Shown: piece by piece, positions 753 through 11,185 of the stretch
Layout: each line of letters begins with the position of its first letter
Position numbering within the stretch: position 1 is the stretch's first letter
Source: a virus
Lineage: Duplodnaviria; Caudoviricetes
Direction: 5' to 3' (one strand)
Virus record (IMG/VR): IMGVR_UViG_3300016484_000593
Location: 1-25,675 of that record
Length of the DNA stretch: 25,675 nt
Notes under the pieces: model-generated
The model's database searches: none
The model's input: the letters and a program-made list of their open reading frames with translations, nothing else
Told to the model about the DNA's origin: nothing
Translations under genes and position numbers: made by a program

Positions 753-2859
753 CGACATCTTCGCGGCGCAGGCCGAAGCCTTCTACCAGAAGATCTTGCT
801 GGCACACATGGCCCCGCCACTGGCAATGTCTGCGTCGGGCTGGGCCGACCGGTTCCGCCACATCGCTAAAGGCCCCGAGCGCGGCCCGTGGCGCACGTCT
901 CGCACGCCGTACCTGGCCGAGCCCATGGCCTGCACAGACCCAGAAAGCCCGGTGCAGCGCGTATCGATGATGTTTGCCACGCAGCTCGGCAAATCCGAAG
1001 TCATATACAACGCGGTTCTCAAGCGCATTCACTTGCAGCCCATGGACATGATGATGGTCCAGCCCACGCTGCAAGACGGCAAGGACCACAGCCGCGAGCG
1101 CTTCATGCCGACCGTGCGCGCCACACCTGCCGTGCGTGACCGCATGCCGAAGGCGACTTCGCGCGACGAAACCAACACCTGGCAAACCAAGCAGCTGCCC
1201 GGCGGAGCAACCCTGTACTTCGCCGGTGCCAACAGCGCCCGCAGCCTGGCGTCGAAGCCATTGCCGTTTGCTGCATGCGACGAAATCGACGGCTATCCGC
1301 ATGACGTCGACGGCGAGGGCGACCCCCTCGGCCTGGTGTGGGAGCGTATGTCCAACTTCGGACAGCGAAAGCTCATCCTGGCCAGCACGCCAACCACCAA
1401 AGGATTCAGCCGCATCGAAGAAGAATATCTCGCCGCCGATCGCTGCCGCTACCACGTGCCATGCCTGCACTGCAACACGCTGCAGACGCTGGAGTGGGGT
1501 GCGGGCGCGGCCTGGGGCATCAAGTGGCTGAAAACCCCCAGCGGTGAAGCCAGGCCAGAAACCGCCGTCTATGTCTGCCGACACTGCGGCAGCACCCTGC
1601 AGAACCACCAGAAAACCGACATGCTGGCTGCCGGTCTGTGGGTGCCAGAAATGCCGGGTGCGCAGAATGGATTGGCGCGCAGCTTCCACCTGAACAAGCT
1701 CTACAGCCCCGTCGGTTGGAAAAGCTGGTCCATGCTGGTGGGAGACTGGGAAAGGGCGCAAGAGACAGCCCGCGCGGGCGACAGCACCAAGCTCAAGACT
1801 TTCGTCAACACGTCGCTGGCGGAGACATGGGAAGACGCAGGCGACCGCGCCGACGAGCACGCCCTGCGCAAACGCGCCGCCGACATCCCCCTGCGCCAGG
1901 TGCACTGGGGCCTGTTCGTCGCCACAATGGGCGTCGACGTGCAAGGCGATCGCCTGGAGGCCTACACCTGGGCCTGGGGCCGCGATCTCGAACGCCAGCT
2001 TGTCGATCGCCAGGTCATCTACGGCGACCCAGCCATCCCAGAAACCGAAGCCGGCAGCCCTTGGAAAGCGCTCACCGACCTGCGCCGCGCCCCGCTCAGC
2101 CACGCCAGCGGCCGCACCGTGCCACTCATGGCCGTGGCCATCGACTCCGGCGGCCACCACACCCAGGCCGTCTACACCTACGTCCGCAGCCACCAGCACG
2201 CCCACGTCATCGCCGTCAAAGGCAGCAGCCAGCCCGGCCGCGCGATTCTCGGCAAACCCACCGAGCAGGATGTCAACTGGCGCGGCCAGAAAATGCGGCG
2301 TGGCGTCAAGCTGTGGCCCGTCGGCACCGACACCGCCAAGGCCGAAATCTACGGCCGCTTCCGCGTCGCCGATGTCGGTCCCGGCTACGTGCACCTCAGC
2401 AAACATCTGCCCGCCGACGTGTTCGAGCAACTCACCGCCGAACGCCTCGTCACCCGCTACGTCAAAGGCCGCCCGCGCCTCGAATGGGTCAAGCCCGCCG
2501 GCAAACGCAACGAAGCCCTCGACTGCGCCGTCTACGCCCTCGTCGCCGCCCATTACCTCGGCATGGAACGCTGGCGCGCCCACGAATGGGCTAAGTGGGA
2601 AAGCCTCGCCCAATCGCGCGACCTGTTCGACGGCCCAGGCACCGCCCAACCAGCGGCAACCTCATCGGCCGCCACCGACCAAGCCGCCACCGTCGACGCG
2701 GCAACCGCCACCCCGCAATCTAGCAACCACGGCCCCGTATCCAGTAACCCCGACGCTGAAGGCAGCAACAACGCCACCCCCACAACCCGCCCGCCGCTGC
2801 CCGCCCACGCCCGCCCGCAACCCCGCAGCACCGCCCGCCGCCTGCAGCGCGACTGGTAG
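739..2859 (+). CDS. Terminase large subunit, lambda gpA family
   Basis: GPWRTSRTPY, Walker A ATQLGKSE, Walker B ACDEIDGYP, STPT, CLHC/CRHC zinc pair, GVDVQ, IDSGG and RNEALDC motifs. ATG 739 is preferred over TTG 724. Confidence 0.97.
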   Translation: MGARDDIFAAQAEAFYQKILLAHMAPPLAMSASGWADRFRHIAKGPERGPWRTSRTPYLAEPMACTDPESPVQRVSMMFATQLGKSEVIYNAVLKRIHLQPMDMMMVQPTLQDGKDHSRERFMPTVRATPAVRDRMPKATSRDETNTWQTKQLPGGATLYFAGANSARSLASKPLPFAACDEIDGYPHDVDGEGDPLGLVWERMSNFGQRKLILASTPTTKGFSRIEEEYLAADRCRYHVPCLHCNTLQTLEWGAGAAWGIKWLKTPSGEARPETAVYVCRHCGSTLQNHQKTDMLAAGLWVPEMPGAQNGLARSFHLNKLYSPVGWKSWSMLVGDWERAQETARAGDSTKLKTFVNTSLAETWEDAGDRADEHALRKRAADIPLRQVHWGLFVATMGVDVQGDRLEAYTWAWGRDLERQLVDRQVIYGDPAIPETEAGSPWKALTDLRRAPLSHASGRTVPLMAVAIDSGGHHTQAVYTYVRSHQHAHVIAVKGSSQPGRAILGKPTEQDVNWRGQKMRRGVKLWPVGTDTAKAEIYGRFRVADVGPGYVHLSKHLPADVFEQLTAERLVTRYVKGRPRLEWVKPAGKRNEALDCAVYALVAAHYLGMERWRAHEWAKWESLAQSRDLFDGPGTAQPAATSSAATDQAATVDAATATPQSSNHGPVSSNPDAEGSNNATPTTRPPLPAHARPQPRSTARRLQRDW

Positions 2860-2868
2860 CCAACCGCC

Positions 2869-3264
2869 ATGACCCACACCGCAACCCCAACCGCAGCCGC
2901 CCCCGTCGTGCCCGCCGCTCCCACCGCGTCCATCGCCACAGCGCCGCCCCCCGCGCCGCCCGCCGACGACACCGACGACCTCGTCGCCCGCATGCTCGAC
3001 TACCTCGTCAAGCTCAAACCCGACCTGGCAAAGCAACGCAAGGCCCTGGCCGACGACATGCGCAAAGAATTCGGCGGCCAACGCTGGTACGTCGCCAGCC
3101 GCCAGCCCACCGAACGCCAAGAACGCATCGCCGCCATCCTCGCCACTTTCAACGGCCGCAACGCCAGCGAAGTCGCCCGAACACTCAAAATCAGCCGCGC
3201 CACGGTGTACCGCGTGCTCAAGCAGCCGGGGCGGTTTGCGCGGGCGGAAGGGGGCAAAAAGTGA
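2869..3264 (+). CDS. Mor/C-family transcription activator
   Basis: FGGQRWYV followed by FNGRNASEVARTLKISRATVYRVLK (C-terminal HTH), typical of Mu Mor/C homologues. Confidence 0.85.
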   Translation: MTHTATPTAAAPVVPAAPTASIATAPPPAPPADDTDDLVARMLDYLVKLKPDLAKQRKALADDMRKEFGGQRWYVASRQPTERQERIAAILATFNGRNASEVARTLKISRATVYRVLKQPGRFARAEGGKK

Positions 3265-3425
3265 AGGCCATGCACTGGCTGCAATCCCGCCTGAAAGCCT
3301 TGCGAGCGCGCCGCAAACTGGGCGCCTGCTTCTGGTATTTGAAATCGGAAGTCAAAACCAAGCGGCGCGACGTACTCAGCTACCACTGCCGACGCTGCGG
3401 CCTTCCGCATGACAACCATTTTTAA
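3261..3425 (+). CDS. Small hypothetical protein, 54 aa, with C...HCRRCG possible zinc ligands (not in the ORF track)
   Basis: GTG overlaps the Mor stop (GTGA). Reads MKAMHWLQSRLKALRARRKLGACFWYLKSEVKTKRRDVLSYHCRRCGLPHDNHF; the TAA lies inside the core TTTTAAC of attC-like site 1. Confidence 0.55.
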   Translation: MKAMHWLQSRLKALRARRKLGACFWYLKSEVKTKRRDVLSYHCRRCGLPHDNHF

Positions 3426-3506
3426 CGCGGAGTTAACCGGCGCCCACGGTGGCACCCACGAAACGCGAGGACGCCGACAGGCGTCCGGTTGAACGCACTG
3501 TTAGGC
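3420..3506 (-). mobile_element. attC-like site 1 (87 bp)
   Basis: Minus strand: R'' GCCTAAC, 5 nt, L'' GTTCAACC (extra C), GG[A]CGCC ... GGCGCC, L' GGTTAAC, 5 nt, R' GTTAAAA. Canonical attC layout with two extrahelical bases. Confidence 0.88.
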
Positions 3507-3520
3507 CCTGGTGGCCGGAG

Positions 3521-3724
3521 ATGAAACCGATGAACTGCCCGAATGTGTATTGGGTAACTGAACTCGTGAAGCTGACGCAGACGGTGGCGAGTTCGCACCC
3601 CACGCTGGGGTGGACGCCAGCCCGCCCGATTGGCTGGCAGGGGTTCGCCTTGCGCAGCCGCTTCCGTGCCGCGTGGCTGGTGTTCACCGGCAAAGCTGAC
3701 GCGGTGCGGTGGTTTGAGGCCTAA
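3521..3724 (+). CDS. Cassette A hypothetical phage protein (WxPARP...AAWLVFTGKADAVxW type)
   Basis: ORF fills the space between attC-like sites 1 and 2. GGAG at 3517-3520 (start 3521 or 3530); stop TAA inside GCCTAAC. Confidence 0.75.
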   Translation: MKPMNCPNVYWVTELVKLTQTVASSHPTLGWTPARPIGWQGFALRSRFRAAWLVFTGKADAVRWFEA

Positions 3725-3816
3725 CGTTGGAGCTAACACGGAGCCAGCGGCGGGAAGGACTGGACAGGAGCAAAGGCCGCGACCCGTTGGCGCTCGTGTT
3801 GAGCGACGTGTTATGC
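3719..3816 (-). mobile_element. attC-like site 2 (98 bp)
   Basis: Minus strand: R'' GCATAAC, 5 nt, L'' GCTCAACA ... L' TGTTAGC, 6 nt, R' GTTAGGC, with an imperfect inner stem. Confidence 0.85.
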
Positions 3817-3850
3817 GGCTGGTGAACGAAGGCACGAAAGGGCGAGAGCG

Positions 3851-4183
3851 ATGGAATGGCCGAAGAAACGGACGGTAGGACGATGCGGCGATATGGGGCC
3901 TGCAGGCGACCACCAGATGGTCCTGCATTTGCAGGACGACGGCGATGTAGTGCTGGCTGTTACCGGCACGGGCATGGGCAGCCAAGTTCACACCAGCACG
4001 GTGGAGTTTTGCGCTGGCGGCGCTGGCGGCGGCCGTTCGATGCGAACCCGCGACGCCCTGATTGCGCTGATGGTGGCAATGGAGGCCGACAACGCCGAAA
4101 GCCCGCGCGCTGCATGGCCGCCCGCGCGCCACGAGCCGCCTAACGCAAAGCTAAACGGCGGCCCGCCAGGGCCGTCCGTTTGA
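3851..4183 (+). CDS. Cassette B hypothetical protein (VEFC..GGGGRS..T..AL..L..A...DN type)
   Basis: ORF fills the space between sites 2 and 3; its last codons (PNAKLNGGPPGPSV) read into attC-like site 3. Confidence 0.75.
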   Translation: MEWPKKRTVGRCGDMGPAGDHQMVLHLQDDGDVVLAVTGTGMGSQVHTSTVEFCAGGAGGGRSMRTRDALIALMVAMEADNAESPRAAWPPARHEPPNAKLNGGPPGPSV

Positions 4184-4197
4184 GCGACCTGTTAGCC
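4138..4197 (-). mobile_element. attC-like site 3 (60 bp)
   Basis: Minus strand: GGCTAAC AGGTC GCT[C]AAAC GG[A]CGGCCC TGGC GGGCCG CC GTTTAGC TTTGC GTTAGGC. Same size and layout as the classic short 59/60-base elements. Confidence 0.92.
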
Positions 4198-4231
4198 GGC
4201 CAGGTGAAAACCGGCACAACCTAGGAAAGCA

Positions 4232-4459
4232 ATGGAAACTTTCGTGCAACCGAAGATCACCGGATACCGCCAACTGAACGAGGCGGAAGCTGCGCTGATG
4301 AACGAGATCAAGGCCGAGGGCGTGAAGCTGGGCGAGCTGGTGGCGAAGCTGCGCGCAACCGATGGCCTTGACCAGCGGTGGGTGAGCATCGGCGCCACCG
4401 ACCTGCAGACCGGCCTGATGGCGCTGACGCGCGGCGTGGCCCAGCCCACGACGTTCTAG
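4232..4459 (+). CDS. acb2: Acb2-like anti-CBASS cyclic-oligonucleotide sponge protein (cassette C, gene 1)
   Basis: KITGYRQLNEAEAALMNEIK...RWVSIGATDLQTGLMALTRGVAQPTTF matches the Acb2 pattern as I recall it (KIKGYRDLS.EEI..MN..K...RW.AIG.TD.QTG.MA..RA.AQP..F). RBS AGGA at 4223. Confidence 0.85.
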   Translation: METFVQPKITGYRQLNEAEAALMNEIKAEGVKLGELVAKLRATDGLDQRWVSIGATDLQTGLMALTRGVAQPTTF

Positions 4460-4461
4460 CC

Positions 4462-4728
4462 ATGAGCCGAGCCGACGCATTGCGCCCGATGCACCGCAGC
4501 GTGCTGGAGAAGCAGGCACGCGCCCGCGGCTACCGGCCGCGCCCGGTGAACATGAACACCGTGGCGCTGCCTGCCGAGGCGCGCGAGTGCATCGAGAGCA
4601 TTGCGCTCGGCATCTTCACCGACATGGTGAACAGCGGCGCCACGCTGCAGGAGACGCTGGCGGCCGTGTACCTGAGCGGCAGCGAGAACGCACTGGCGGC
4701 GTACCGCGAGCCGGCTAACACAATTTGA
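4462..4728 (+). CDS. Cassette C gene 2, hypothetical 88-aa protein
   Basis: ATG 2 nt after the acb2-like stop; MSRADALRPMHR...AVYLSGSENALAAYREPANTI. The last codons cross the terminal GGCTAAC core. Confidence 0.7.
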   Translation: MSRADALRPMHRSVLEKQARARGYRPRPVNMNTVALPAEARECIESIALGIFTDMVNSGATLQETLAAVYLSGSENALAAYREPANTI

Positions 4729-4749
4729 ACGACACCCATGTCGCATAAC
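4713..4749 (-). mobile_element. Putative attI-like site closing the cassette array
   Basis: Minus strand: GTTATGC GACATGGGTGTCGTTCAAATTGT GTTAGCC. A core site with a second GTT-type box 30 nt upstream and no attC-type partner arm. Confidence 0.5.
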
Positions 4750-4800
4750 CTGGCGCCTTCCCACCACCCAACCCATTGATTCCAAAGCCACCCAAGCCAT

Positions 4801-4833
4801 TTATCACGACACCGCACCAGTTATCACGACACC
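4801..4833. repeat. Direct repeat TTATCACGACACC x2 (20-bp period); ACGACACC also at 4729-4736
   Basis: Seen at 4801-4813 and 4821-4833. Confidence 0.85.
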
Positions 4834-4861
4834 CACGCGCCCGCCACACCGCCCACCCCAA

Positions 4862-4892
4862 AGTCTCACCCTTGCCTACCCCTGAGACACCC
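4862..4892 (+). promoter_or_regulatory. Putative late-promoter/activator box 1 (GTCTCA-N14-TGAGAC)
   Basis: 31-bp element 30/31 identical to 11155-11185; both end 19 nt before a structural gene start. Confidence 0.7.
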
Positions 4893-4911
4893 TAACCGGT
4901 AGTCTCAGCCC

Positions 4912-5136
4912 ATGGCGTACACCCAGACCGACCTCGACAGCCTAGACGCAGCCATTGCCTCGGGCCACCGCCGCGTGTACGTCGAAGGCCGCCAAGTCGA
5001 ATACGCCACCACCGAAGAACTCCTGAAGGCCAGAAGCCATGTAAGCGAGCAACTCAAAGCAGGCGCAGCGTCCGCATCTGGCGCCACCCGCCGCGGCGTC
5101 TTCCGCTTCCGCAACACCACCGTGCGCGGCGACTGA
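4912..5136 (+). CDS. Head-to-tail joining protein, gpW-like
   Basis: MAYTQTDLDSLDAAIASGHRRV...GRQVEY...EL..AR, directly before a lambda-type portal. Confidence 0.85.
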   Translation: MAYTQTDLDSLDAAIASGHRRVYVEGRQVEYATTEELLKARSHVSEQLKAGAASASGATRRGVFRFRNTTVRGD

Positions 5137-5155
5137 AAGCGGGCAGGGCGCACCC

Positions 5156-6631
5156 ATGAACCTCATCGACCGCGTCGTCGGCTACCTCGACCCTGCCGCC
5201 GGCATCCGCCGCGCCTACCAGCGCCGCCAGCTCCAGCGCGCCTATGAGGCCGCCAGTCCGCGCGACACCTGGCGCCCGCGCCGGCAAAACGCCAGCGCCA
5301 ATGCCGACCACGCGGCAGACGCCGCCACCCTGCGCGCCAAAGCCCGCACCCTGGTGCAAAACGTTCCCTACGTGCGCGCCGGCCTCGAGGGCCTCGTCAG
5401 CTACACCATCGGCACCGGCATCGTCAGCCGCGCAACAGACGCCCGCACCGCCGCCGCATTCAACGCCGCTTTCGCCGCCTGGTCCAAAGTGTGCGACGCC
5501 GACGGCCGGCTGGACTGGCCCGGCATCCAGGCCGCCGCCTACCGCGCCATGGAGCAAGACGGCGAAGTCCTCATCCGCCTGCGCCCGCGCCGCCCGTCCG
5601 ATGGCCTGCCCATCCCGCTGCAACTCCAGATGCTGGAAATCGACTGGCTCGACACCAGCCGCAGCGGCGTCATCGAAGGCGAGAACACCATCAACGGCAT
5701 CGGCTATGACGCCCTCGGCCGCCCCGCCGCCTACTGGCTGCACGACACCCACCCCGGCGACATGGGCCTGGCCGCCGCATTCACGCGCCGCACATCCAGC
5801 GTGCGCATACCCGCCCGCAATATCGTCCACCTCTACGCGCCCGACCGGCCTGGGCAGGGCAGGGGCTTCACCCGCCTGGCGCCCATCATCGCTCGCGCCC
5901 GCGACAACCAGCTCTACGAAGACGCCGAACTAGCCCGCAAGAACCTCGAGAGCCGCCTCGGCATCGTCGCCAGCGGCGACGTGTCCACCCTGGGCGACGG
6001 CCCACCGTCTGGCGCCACCACCAGCACCGCCACCAGCGGCGACCTGGGCGAGCTCGCTGGCGGCGGCATCCTGCAAGTGCCCGCCGGCCTGAACTTGACC
6101 GCCATCGAGCCCAAGGCCATGCCCGGCTACGTGGACACGCTCAAGTTCAACCTGCAGCTCATCGCCAGCGGCCTGGGCGTTCCCTACGAACTCATGACCG
6201 GCGACGTGAGCCAGACCAACTTCAGCAGCGCCCGCGTCCGCCGCCTCGACTTCAAGAAAGCCGTCGAAGCCACCCAATGGCTCACCGTCATCCCCCGCCT
6301 GATTGAACCCGTTCTCACCGCCGCCCAAGACGCCGCCGTCCTCGCCGGCATCATCCCCCGCGCCGCCCACCAGTTCGACCACAGCTGCCCGAAATGGGAC
6401 TACGTCAACCCACAACAAGACGCCGAAAGCGACCGCCTCGAAATCGCCAGCGGCCTCAGCACCCTGAGCGAAAAACTCCGCTCCCGCGGCTACAACCCCC
6501 AGGCCGTGTTTGACGAAATCAAGAGCGACATGCAGGCCCTCGAAAAAGCCGGCGTGCTCGACCTGCTGCTGGCATTGCAAGGCAAGACCAAACCGGGCGC
6601 GGCGCCTGCCAACACGGGGGGCGCAGCATGA
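5156..6631 (+). CDS. Portal protein, lambda family
   Basis: AYEAAS, LRAKARTLVQN, DGEVLIR, RPGQGRG, GVPYELMTGDVSQTNFSSAR and WDYVNPQQD motifs. Confidence 0.96.
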   Translation: MNLIDRVVGYLDPAAGIRRAYQRRQLQRAYEAASPRDTWRPRRQNASANADHAADAATLRAKARTLVQNVPYVRAGLEGLVSYTIGTGIVSRATDARTAAAFNAAFAAWSKVCDADGRLDWPGIQAAAYRAMEQDGEVLIRLRPRRPSDGLPIPLQLQMLEIDWLDTSRSGVIEGENTINGIGYDALGRPAAYWLHDTHPGDMGLAAAFTRRTSSVRIPARNIVHLYAPDRPGQGRGFTRLAPIIARARDNQLYEDAELARKNLESRLGIVASGDVSTLGDGPPSGATTSTATSGDLGELAGGGILQVPAGLNLTAIEPKAMPGYVDTLKFNLQLIASGLGVPYELMTGDVSQTNFSSARVRRLDFKKAVEATQWLTVIPRLIEPVLTAAQDAAVLAGIIPRAAHQFDHSCPKWDYVNPQQDAESDRLEIASGLSTLSEKLRSRGYNPQAVFDEIKSDMQALEKAGVLDLLLALQGKTKPGAAPANTGGAA

Positions 6632-7742: not shown

Positions 7743-8552
7743 GTGGCTGATACCCACATCAACCGCGTCAAGCAGGCTGTCTCCGGCACGCCGGGTACGG
7801 GCTCGATCACGCTTGCCGCTGCACTTTCTGGCTTTCGCGCTTTGGGTGCAAGCCAGAACGGTCAGACGTTCCCATTCCTGTTCCTTGATGGCACAGCGTG
7901 GGAAATCGCCACTGGCTGCACCTACACGCACTCAGGCACAACACTTTCGCGCGGCACTTTGGAGGATTCGAGCACCGGCTCAAGAATAAGTCTGAGCAGC
8001 GCGGCGGTTTGCATGGTGCTGCCTACGGCGGCTTTCGGCAATCGCTTTGAGTTGGGTCGAGTTCCGACCCTGGCAATTGTTGATGAGTCTTCATCAAACG
8101 ATCCTGGCGGTCCTGCGGTTGTCTACAGCAGCTCCACGTTTCGGATGATGGCATGGGTTGTGAACAAGTGGAAGTCTTTTCCAATGTTGTTTGCGACGAA
8201 CACTTGGGAGGGCGCTCAACGCGGATCTATTACGACGCTGACGCCGAGCGGGGCTATCACAATAGATGCGAATTCGGGCAACTTCTACACCCTAACACCG
8301 AATGCCAATTTTGGTATTGCAAACCCGACCAATTTGGCCGCTGGCCAATCTTTCGTAATTGAGATTACGCAGCCAGCCAGCGGTGGACCGCGGGTTATCA
8401 GCAGCTGGGGCTCATACTTCCGATATGCCGGGGGTCTTTCCACGCTTCCAGCGCTCAGTACGGCAGCGAATGCGGTTGACGTTATAAGCTGCATCGCCTG
8501 GACATCGACGCGCATCCAGATTCTCGGCATTGCCAAGGACATCAAAGCATGA
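7743..8552 (+). CDS. Fibre-like structural protein
   Basis: N-terminal RVKQ...GTGSITL...WEIATG.YT..GT.L.R..SS.G and C-terminal NPTNL.AGQS..I.I.Q...G.R...WGS...LSTAANAVDVI, both common in phage fibre/baseplate proteins. Confidence 0.6.
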   Translation: MADTHINRVKQAVSGTPGTGSITLAAALSGFRALGASQNGQTFPFLFLDGTAWEIATGCTYTHSGTTLSRGTLEDSSTGSRISLSSAAVCMVLPTAAFGNRFELGRVPTLAIVDESSSNDPGGPAVVYSSSTFRMMAWVVNKWKSFPMLFATNTWEGAQRGSITTLTPSGAITIDANSGNFYTLTPNANFGIANPTNLAAGQSFVIEITQPASGGPRVISSWGSYFRYAGGLSTLPALSTAANAVDVISCIAWTSTRIQILGIAKDIKA

Positions 8553-9073
8553 TTCCGGGCGCGCCACTCCCCTGGGTGTCGACCGCCGCAAGTACGTCAT
8601 CTGTCAATGTTGCGCTCGCAGCTAATGGAGCATCAGCAGCGGCGTCTAGTCAGCTCGGCGCAAATTTTCCGGCATCGTCCGCGATTAACGGTTCTCGGAC
8701 GGCGGCCGGCTGGGGTGCAGGGTCTGGTGGTTGGGCATGCGGTACGCCCAATACGTGGCCCGATTGGTTGGAGGTGACGTTTGCAGCATCTAGCACGATC
8801 CAAACAATCAACGTTATCGGGATACCGGATAATTTCGGAGACGCCCCAGAACCCACGCTAAGCATGGTGTCTACGGAATTCCCGCTAACAGATTTTGTCG
8901 TCGAGTATTGGGACGGGTCGGCATGGGCCACTGTTCCGGGCGGGAATGTGACCGGAAATGATAAAGTATGGCGGCAGTTCACATTTAGCCCGATAACGAC
9001 GACAAAGATACGGGCGTATATTACAGCCGGATATGCGTACTCGATTATTTGCGAAATTGAGGCGTGGACATGA
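8549..9073 (+). CDS. Discoidin (F5/8 type C)-like carbohydrate-binding protein
   Basis: NVALAANGASAAASS...SAING...W...PDWLEVTF...DFVVEYWDGSAW...F.PITTTKIR...I.EIEAW. Confidence 0.8.
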   Translation: MIPGAPLPWVSTAASTSSVNVALAANGASAAASSQLGANFPASSAINGSRTAAGWGAGSGGWACGTPNTWPDWLEVTFAASSTIQTINVIGIPDNFGDAPEPTLSMVSTEFPLTDFVVEYWDGSAWATVPGGNVTGNDKVWRQFTFSPITTTKIRAYITAGYAYSIICEIEAWT

Positions 9074-11154: not shown

Positions 11155-11185
11155 AGTCTCACCCCTGCCTACCCCTGAGACACCC
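11155..11185 (+). promoter_or_regulatory. Putative late-promoter/activator box 2 (GTCTCA-N14-TGAGAC)
   Basis: Near-identical copy of 4862-4892, upstream of the protease-capsid gene. Confidence 0.7.

What the first reader, a model, noticed from the sequence alone, without database searches (positions are those of the whole stretch)
4232..4459. Acb2-like anti-CBASS sponge carried as cassette cargo
Seen: a 75-aa ORF with GYRQL...MNEIK...RWVSIGATDLQTGLMALTRGVAQP. Known (from recall of Pseudomonas phage Acb2): Acb2 is a hexameric sponge for cyclic di- and trinucleotides, and the residues equivalent to its Y11, K26, R67, T74 and R82 appear conserved here, with a shorter central segment. Integron cassettes are known to carry anti-phage defence genes for bacteria; here the logic seems reversed, with a counter-defence gene in a phage's cassette. 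It sits next to the attI-like site, where the most recent acquisition would be expected (inference).
Basis: partly seen in the sequence, partly recalled or inferred. Interest (0 to 1): 0.88.

Follow-up and report, generated by a model that had tools for sequence, protein, structure and literature searches.

The report
Phage Acb2 sponge in reversed cassette
A phage carries a gene of the known Acb2 family, which likely soaks up its host's anti-viral alarm molecules, inside a swappable integron-type cassette whose genes face backwards; the same cassette frame carries a different sponge (a Tad1 homolog) in other phages, so phages likely trade counter-defence genes using their host's integron enzyme.

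Summary
Observation confirmed. The ORF at 4232-4459 is a 75-aa Acb2-family protein (Pfam above cut-off, PDB and fold matches). Y11, K26, R67 and T74 are kept; 'R82' is R85 in the deposited chain. The exact sequence is already in a published Acb2 homolog list, and a 74-aa homolog of the same short form inhibits two CBASS systems.

The gene lies in a 575-bp two-gene attC cassette (4144-4718). It abuts an attI-like site, with no integrase in this 55%-complete phage record. The same unit recurs in unrelated contexts, its right end exactly at the crossover. Cargo is antisense to attC polarity in phage-type arrays (9 family hits antisense, 0 sense) but sense in host integrons (8 sense, 0 antisense).

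New here: the same attC type and leader drive a short Acb2, a long Acb2 or a Tad1 homolog (10 of 10 matches are sponge-family genes). Mobilisation by host IntI and expression by read-through are inferred. Phage attC arrays with counter-defence methylases are in print (Qi 2023), and this scan has already noted acb2 cassettes and antisense arrays on other DNA. Ordinary gene, interesting vehicle.

The parts
4232..4459 (+). acb2 gene, 75 aa, short-hairpin form
   Evidence: identical sequence in Hadary 2025 Table S1
4191..4231 (+). cassette leader from the attC core to the start codon, with ribosome site 4223-4226; the same leader type precedes acb2 or tad1 in other phages
4462..4728 (+). second cassette gene, 88 aa, unknown function; has no stop inside the cassette and ends on a stop in the attI-like site (100-101 aa in L002, L090, L266)
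4144..4718 (-). acb2 cassette in canonical integron polarity (575 bp): crossover at 4718/4719, own attC at the left end
4138..4197 (-). attC of the acb2 cassette; extra base in the right-hand L box, so the canonical top strand is the minus strand
   Evidence: hairpin z -3.9 on the minus strand, -2.7 on the plus strand
4713..4749 (-). attI-like site without intI
   Evidence: aligns with sites upstream of truncated intI in L246 and L249
3725..4143 (-). second cassette: attC 3719-3816 plus antisense gene 3851-4183 (110 aa, unknown); found at 98% identity in another phage, travelling with its left attC
3426..3724 (-). third cassette: attC 3420-3506 plus antisense gene 3521-3724 (phrog_21988, unknown function)
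3261..3425 (+). 54-aa Cys-containing ORF at the distal end of the array; no further attC detected
2869..3264 (+). Mor-family late activator gene, left flank (after the terminase genes)
4863..4888 (.). native inverted-repeat element before the head-tail adaptor gene, repeated at 11156-11181 before the capsid gene; likely a late-promoter element
4912..5136 (+). head-tail adaptor gene, right flank (before the portal gene)

Best explanation
The ORF encodes a compact Acb2-family protein, predicted to form a hexameric sponge for CBASS cyclic dinucleotides, and it sits antisense in an attC-bounded cassette beside an attI-like site with no adjacent integrase, where the host's integron integrase likely inserted it. 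Shown: family membership, pocket residues, attC geometry, crossover-precise recurrence of the unit in other genomes, homology of the attI-like site, and antisense polarity. Inferred: (1) the phage lineage captured an attI from an integron and lost intI; (2) host IntI, acting in trans, moves cassettes in and out; (3) backward-facing genes are read by the phage's own terminase-mor transcript rather than by an integron Pc promoter; (4) the protein sequesters 3'3'-cGAMP/cUA (about 0.9 likely) and possibly cA3 (about 0.5), so that CBASS effectors are not switched on. The phage is probably a temperate phage of Burkholderiales.
Against: No recombination, binding, expression or hexamer result exists for this locus. 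Near-identical acb2 cassettes carry several different attC sequences, and gene 1 and gene 2 swap inside the unit; IntI alone does not do that. Many close homologs have no attC at all (L089, L127, L131, L136; most loci below 94%). A strict pattern for this attI type had 0 matches in 401 genomes of the likely host order, so the cognate IntI is not identified. The SMODS domain was found in only 2 of 41 relatives and 1 of 5 carriers; this is one family only and the genomes are incomplete. 10 of 46 Acb2 homologs tested inhibit type I Thoeris, so family does not fix the ligand. The record is 55% complete, so a phage-encoded recombinase is not excluded. Host and phage sets were scanned with different libraries.
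Confidence: 0.66

Rival explanations
1. The protein is an Acb2 sponge, but the array is largely a frozen integron fragment; units now spread between phages by homologous or illegitimate recombination at the shared attC and leader repeats, not by IntI.
For: attC sequences differ among near-identical cassettes. Gene 1 and gene 2 are exchanged within one frame. Several copies have lost one attC arm (L002, L004). No intI in the record. No cognate attI found in 401 genomes.
Against: Right-hand borders fall on the exact crossover base in three different contexts, and loose ends at 4719 recur in two unrelated runs. Sponge cassettes abut an attI-like site in four loci (window, L091, L129, L266). The neighbouring cassette moved intact with its own attC at 98% identity.
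Confidence: 0.2
2. The short form has a different main ligand (3'cADPR of Thoeris, or cA3 of type III CBASS/CRISPR), so 'anti-CBASS dinucleotide sponge' is the wrong label.
For: 10 of 46 tested Acb2 homologs block type I Thoeris. The same slot holds a Tad1 homolog in other phages. SMODS is rare in the sampled relatives.
Confidence: 0.07
3. The arrangement in this window is an assembly chimera of co-occurring genomes that share cassettes.
For: In run X1, which holds the stretch, contigs branch at both ends of 3717-4146 (depth 24) and at 4717-4746, where a second contig of depth 8.8 joins. No listed piece spans the whole stretch.
Against: Depths along the window's path agree (8.1, 9.0, 10.0), while the alternative flank (14.9) matches the separately assembled L269 arrangement. 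The acb2 unit and its attI adjacency recur in independent loci. The whole cassette plus 28 bases of attI lies on one 630-bp contig.
Confidence: 0.05

Closest known systems
Acb2 of Pseudomonas phage PaMx33 (PDB 8H2J, 8H2X, 8IXZ), JBD67 Acb2, T4 Vs.4 (7UQ2), and Acb2_26 of Hadary 2025 (PMC12393519)
   Same: Family profile, two-helix hairpin, dinucleotide-pocket residues (Y11, L14, K26, P90) and trinucleotide residues R67, I71, T74. The exact sequence is listed as an Acb2 homolog.
   Different: 75 aa against 93 (PaMx33) and 108 (JBD67); the segment before R67, where the E64 kink widens the cA3 pocket, is a short loop, and A70 is Ser. Acb2_26 has the same short form. Untested itself.
CALINs and integrons in phage genomes (Qi et al. 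2023, PMC9892861)
   Same: A cluster of attC sites without integrase in a phage; counter-defence cargo (methylases) was proposed there; five of six phage attC sites recombined with IntI1.
   Different: Here an attI-like site is kept without intI, all cargo is antisense to attC polarity, and the cargo is a nucleotide sponge. Neither is described in parts 1-4 of 7 that I read; its supplements were not read.
Sedentary chromosomal integrons of Burkholderiales
   Same: Same attC geometry and polarity rule: all 10 sites found upstream of host intI point away from it.
   Different: Host cargo with Pfam hits is sense (GNAT, RF-1, NYN, GFA, peptidase S51); phage cargo is antisense (methylases, HNH, sponges).
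Tad1 (PDB 7UAV, 8KBG)
   Same: Shares the PF24729 hairpin; a Tad1 homolog occupies the same cassette slot in L266 and L282 (E 1e-19).
   Different: The window protein has no Tad1 sequence hit and no predicted strand.

Membership tests
Acb2 | Sequence/profile homology to characterised Acb2 | tested here: met
   PF24729 61 bits vs cut-off 27; PDB E 1e-10, profile E 1e-23; listed in Hadary Table S1
Acb2 | Two long antiparallel helices | tested here: met
Acb2 | Cyclic-dinucleotide pocket residues Y11, K26 (L14, P90) | tested here: met
   Y12, K27, L15, P72; invariant in 86 homologs
Acb2 | Cyclic-trinucleotide pocket (R67, T74, A70, I71 and helix kink at E64) | tested here: inconclusive
   R49, T56, I53 kept, A70 is S52; the kink region is replaced by a loop; T4 Acb2 stayed unable to bind cA3 even with both residues
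Acb2 | Homohexamer | not testable with these tools
Acb2 | Ligand sequestration and CBASS inhibition | not testable with these tools
   Only by proxy: Acb2_26 active on both CBASS systems
Tad1 | About 120-aa protein with an N-terminal part ahead of the hairpin | tested here: not met
   75 aa, no strand, no Tad1 hit
Integron gene cassette | attC with R''/L''/L'/R' boxes and an extrahelical base | tested here: met
   3 sites, shuffle mean 0.13; 4138-4197 folds at z -3.9, but the other two do not beat shuffles in minimum free energy
Integron gene cassette | Unit borders at the G|TT crossover with complementary core and inverse core | tested here: met
Integron gene cassette | Gene reads towards its own attC (usual, not strict) | tested here: not met
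   Antisense
Integron gene cassette | Recombined by IntI | not testable with these tools
   Needs an attC x attI assay
Complete integron | intI next to attI | tested here: not met
   No PF00589 match in the 25,675-bp record; head genes follow the site; the record is 55% complete
Complete integron | attI site | tested here: met
   By homology only: the same motif lies directly upstream of IntI fragments in L246 and L249; 0 of 401 genomes matched a strict pattern
Complete integron | Pc promoter | tested here: inconclusive
   0 sigma-70-like sites in 2700-5200 (shuffle mean 0.2)
CALIN (Qi 2023 criterion) | Two or more attC sites within 3 kb, no integrase | tested here: met
   own detector, not IntegronFinder

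The most novel reading that the evidence does not exclude
Temperate phages of Burkholderiales run their own reverse-polarity integron cassette pool: they keep a captured attI, borrow the host's IntI, and shuffle counter-defence genes, with one cassette frame acting as a 'sponge slot' that is reloaded with short Acb2, long Acb2 or Tad1. If so, the antisense attC-bounded genes of unknown function in phages, including the partner genes here, form a ready-made library of new anti-defence proteins.
Probability: 0.45. Interest if true: 0.8.

Novelty: new variant of a known kind. Interest (0 to 1): 0.55.

Why it matters
The gene alone is an ordinary member of a family with thousands of homologs (4,471 of 4,488 candidates). 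The vehicle matters. Integrons are being described as bacterial anti-phage libraries; here the same site-specific hardware appears to hold the opposite cargo, in the opposite polarity, in phages. The polarity split gives a simple filter for mining counter-defence genes. The Acb2/Tad1 exchange within one frame also bears on how cassettes are made and reloaded, a long-standing open question (my own knowledge). Both are directly testable with standard attC x attI and CBASS plaque assays.

Full report
Observation. The ORF 4232-4459 (+) is 75 aa with the quoted motifs. It lies between a Mor-family gene (2869-3264) and a head-tail adaptor gene (4912-5136) in a lambda-like head module with a gpA-type terminase and a lambda-family portal. 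The record is the window itself, a linear virus record estimated 55% complete, with no phage-integrase-family match.

What is in print on the protein. Cao et al. (PMC10312549; passages and section 9 read): Y11/K26 bind dinucleotides, R67/T74 bind cA3, a kink at E64 widens the cA3 pocket, and T4 Acb2 cannot bind cA3 even with both residues. That kink region is a short loop here, so cA3 binding is open. Hadary et al. (PMC12393519; parts 1-2 of 8, Table S2 part 1 of 5, and word searches of Tables S1 and S2) list this exact sequence as an Acb2 homolog (Table S1 rows 8800-8806). They show that Acb2_26, 74 aa and ungapped against ours (36 of 68 identical, hand count), inhibits both CBASS systems but not Thoeris I or II. 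Ten of their 46 Acb2 proteins inhibit type I Thoeris. JBD67 acb2 sits among head genes, so a late-operon position is compatible with function.

The cassette is real. A detector that uses only attC geometry finds three sites in the whole window (3420-3506, 3719-3816, 4138-4197), all on the minus strand; shuffles give 0.13. Only the third folds better than shuffles in plain minimum free energy. In canonical polarity the acb2 cassette is 4144-4718 and holds a second gene. The same two-gene unit occurs in L002 (93% nucleotide identity) and L090, with homology ending at 4719 in both. An attC end lies just before acb2 in 18 of 24 loci at >=94% identity, 2 of 30 at 85-94% and 6 of 130 below 85% (184 of 188 loci had enough upstream DNA; redundant loci included; four more carry the site by eye). 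Sixteen distinct closed units have five different second genes or none. The neighbouring cassette occurs at 98% identity in another phage. In run X1 it has depth 24, shared by two genomes of depth about 9 and 15.

Polarity. The extra base places the canonical top strand on minus, so all cargo genes are antisense. Three checks agree. The site upstream of acb2 is the one that travels with it (11 of 136 pairs, against 1 of 136). All 10 sites found upstream of host intI genes point away from intI, as expected. Family hits fall on the sense strand in host integrons (8 of 23 against 0 of 23; Pfam) and on the antisense strand in phage-type arrays (0 of 32 against 9 of 32; PHROGs). The two sets used different libraries, and an earlier length-based score failed. 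By codon bias a few host cassettes (e.g. L316) look antisense too.

The attI-like site. 4713-4749 aligns with sites in eight other places. In L246 and L249 the site lies directly upstream of IntI N-terminal fragments (146 and 59 aa; TIGR02249 at E 4e-36 and 3e-10, below cut-off). Sponge cassettes abut such a site in the window, L091, L129 and L266. In run X1 a second contig reaches the same 30 bases from a different cassette end, exactly at the crossover; whether this is a population variant, a second copy or another element cannot be told. Against: a strict pattern matched 0 of 401 genomes of the likely host order.

The sponge slot. An exact pattern for the cassette leader gave 10 matches on 9 viral contigs. 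Gene 1 was the 75-aa Acb2 in five, a 94-aa Acb2 in two, an apparently frameshifted Acb2 in one, and a 122-aa Tad1 homolog in two (E 1e-19 to Tad1 structures). L266 has an attC type seen with acb2 in other loci, the same leader, and the window's second gene at 89%. Some of the nine contigs may be one phage from several samples.

Host. The closest named carriers are Ideonella (97%, no attC before the gene), a Burkholderiaceae MAG (97%) and Aromatoleum (93%); the flanks scanned carry phage-type genes. Full IntI is present in 2 of 5 carriers and in 23 of 41 relatives of a Rubrivivax MAG that has a 62%-identical portal. SMODS was found in 1 of 5 and 2 of 41. The actual host is unknown.

Mechanism. 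Shown: family, residues, fold, attC geometry, crossover-precise recurrence, polarity, attI homology. Inferred: capture of attI with loss of intI; insertion by host IntI in trans, preferentially at attI (established integron knowledge, recalled); read-through expression from the terminase-mor transcript (no sigma-70-like site and no plus-strand terminator in 2700-5200); sequestration of cyclic dinucleotides. The swaps of attC and of genes inside the unit need another process, probably homologous recombination.

Novelty. Qi et al. (PMC9892861; parts 1-4 of 7 read, supplements not) found 17 CALINs in 10,705 phages, showed IntI1 recombination for five of six sites, and proposed counter-defence methylase cassettes. 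The AntiDefenseFinder preprint (PMC11370490; passages only) counts anti-defence genes in integrons without naming Acb2 in those passages; its supplements may bear on this. The two integron-defence preprints were seen only as search listings. Searches listed no paper on sponge cassettes or antisense attI-anchored arrays in phages; I read few of the listed papers, and most subscription papers are not held. This scan has already noted acb2 cassettes and antisense arrays on other DNA; none of its notes held all the words for an Acb2/Tad1 swap. Verdict: new variant of a known kind, interest 0.55.

Noticed in passing
L266:1136-1504 and L282:529-894: A 122-aa Tad1 homolog occupies the slot that acb2 holds in the window, behind the same leader; in L266 the same second gene and an attI-like end follow.
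   Followed up: yes
L249 (IntI fragment 1295-1471, array 1542-2933): A phage attI with a 59-aa intI stub; the adjacent co-oriented genes include PF21825 crAss001_48 and DUF7446 members. L246 has two tandem attI-like sites around a 146-aa intI stub next to lysis-type genes.
   Followed up: partly
L239: Another phage has an attI-like site in a similar position, after a C5 DNA methylase gene and before the inverted-repeat element and head genes.
   Followed up: partly
window 4863-4888 and 11156-11181: A 26-bp inverted-repeat element occurs twice, before the head-tail adaptor and capsid genes (chance 0.00); similar elements follow mor in related phages. Likely a site for the Mor-family activator.
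   Followed up: partly
window 4717-4746, run X1: A second 634-bp contig (depth 8.8) joins the same attI bases from a different cassette end; incoming depths (9.0 + 8.8) exceed the outgoing one (about 10), which is unexplained.
   Followed up: partly
L002 and L004 (one 39-kb contig): One phage carries two acb2 cassettes with different attC types and different second genes.
   Followed up: no
L255, L285-L308, upstream of intI: LexA-box-like palindromes are visible before about 12 of 26 host intI genes (by eye), fitting SOS control (recalled), which would coincide with prophage induction.
   Followed up: no
L084, L085, L086, L088, L103, L124, L129, L146: Antisense phage cassettes carry DNA methyltransferases (5 of 9 hits), HNH/endonuclease genes and one phrog_478 member.
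   Followed up: partly
window 7743-9073: GC drops to 55-57% around two tail-fibre-like ORFs that sit upstream of the capsid gene, an unusual order suggesting a swapped module.
   Followed up: no
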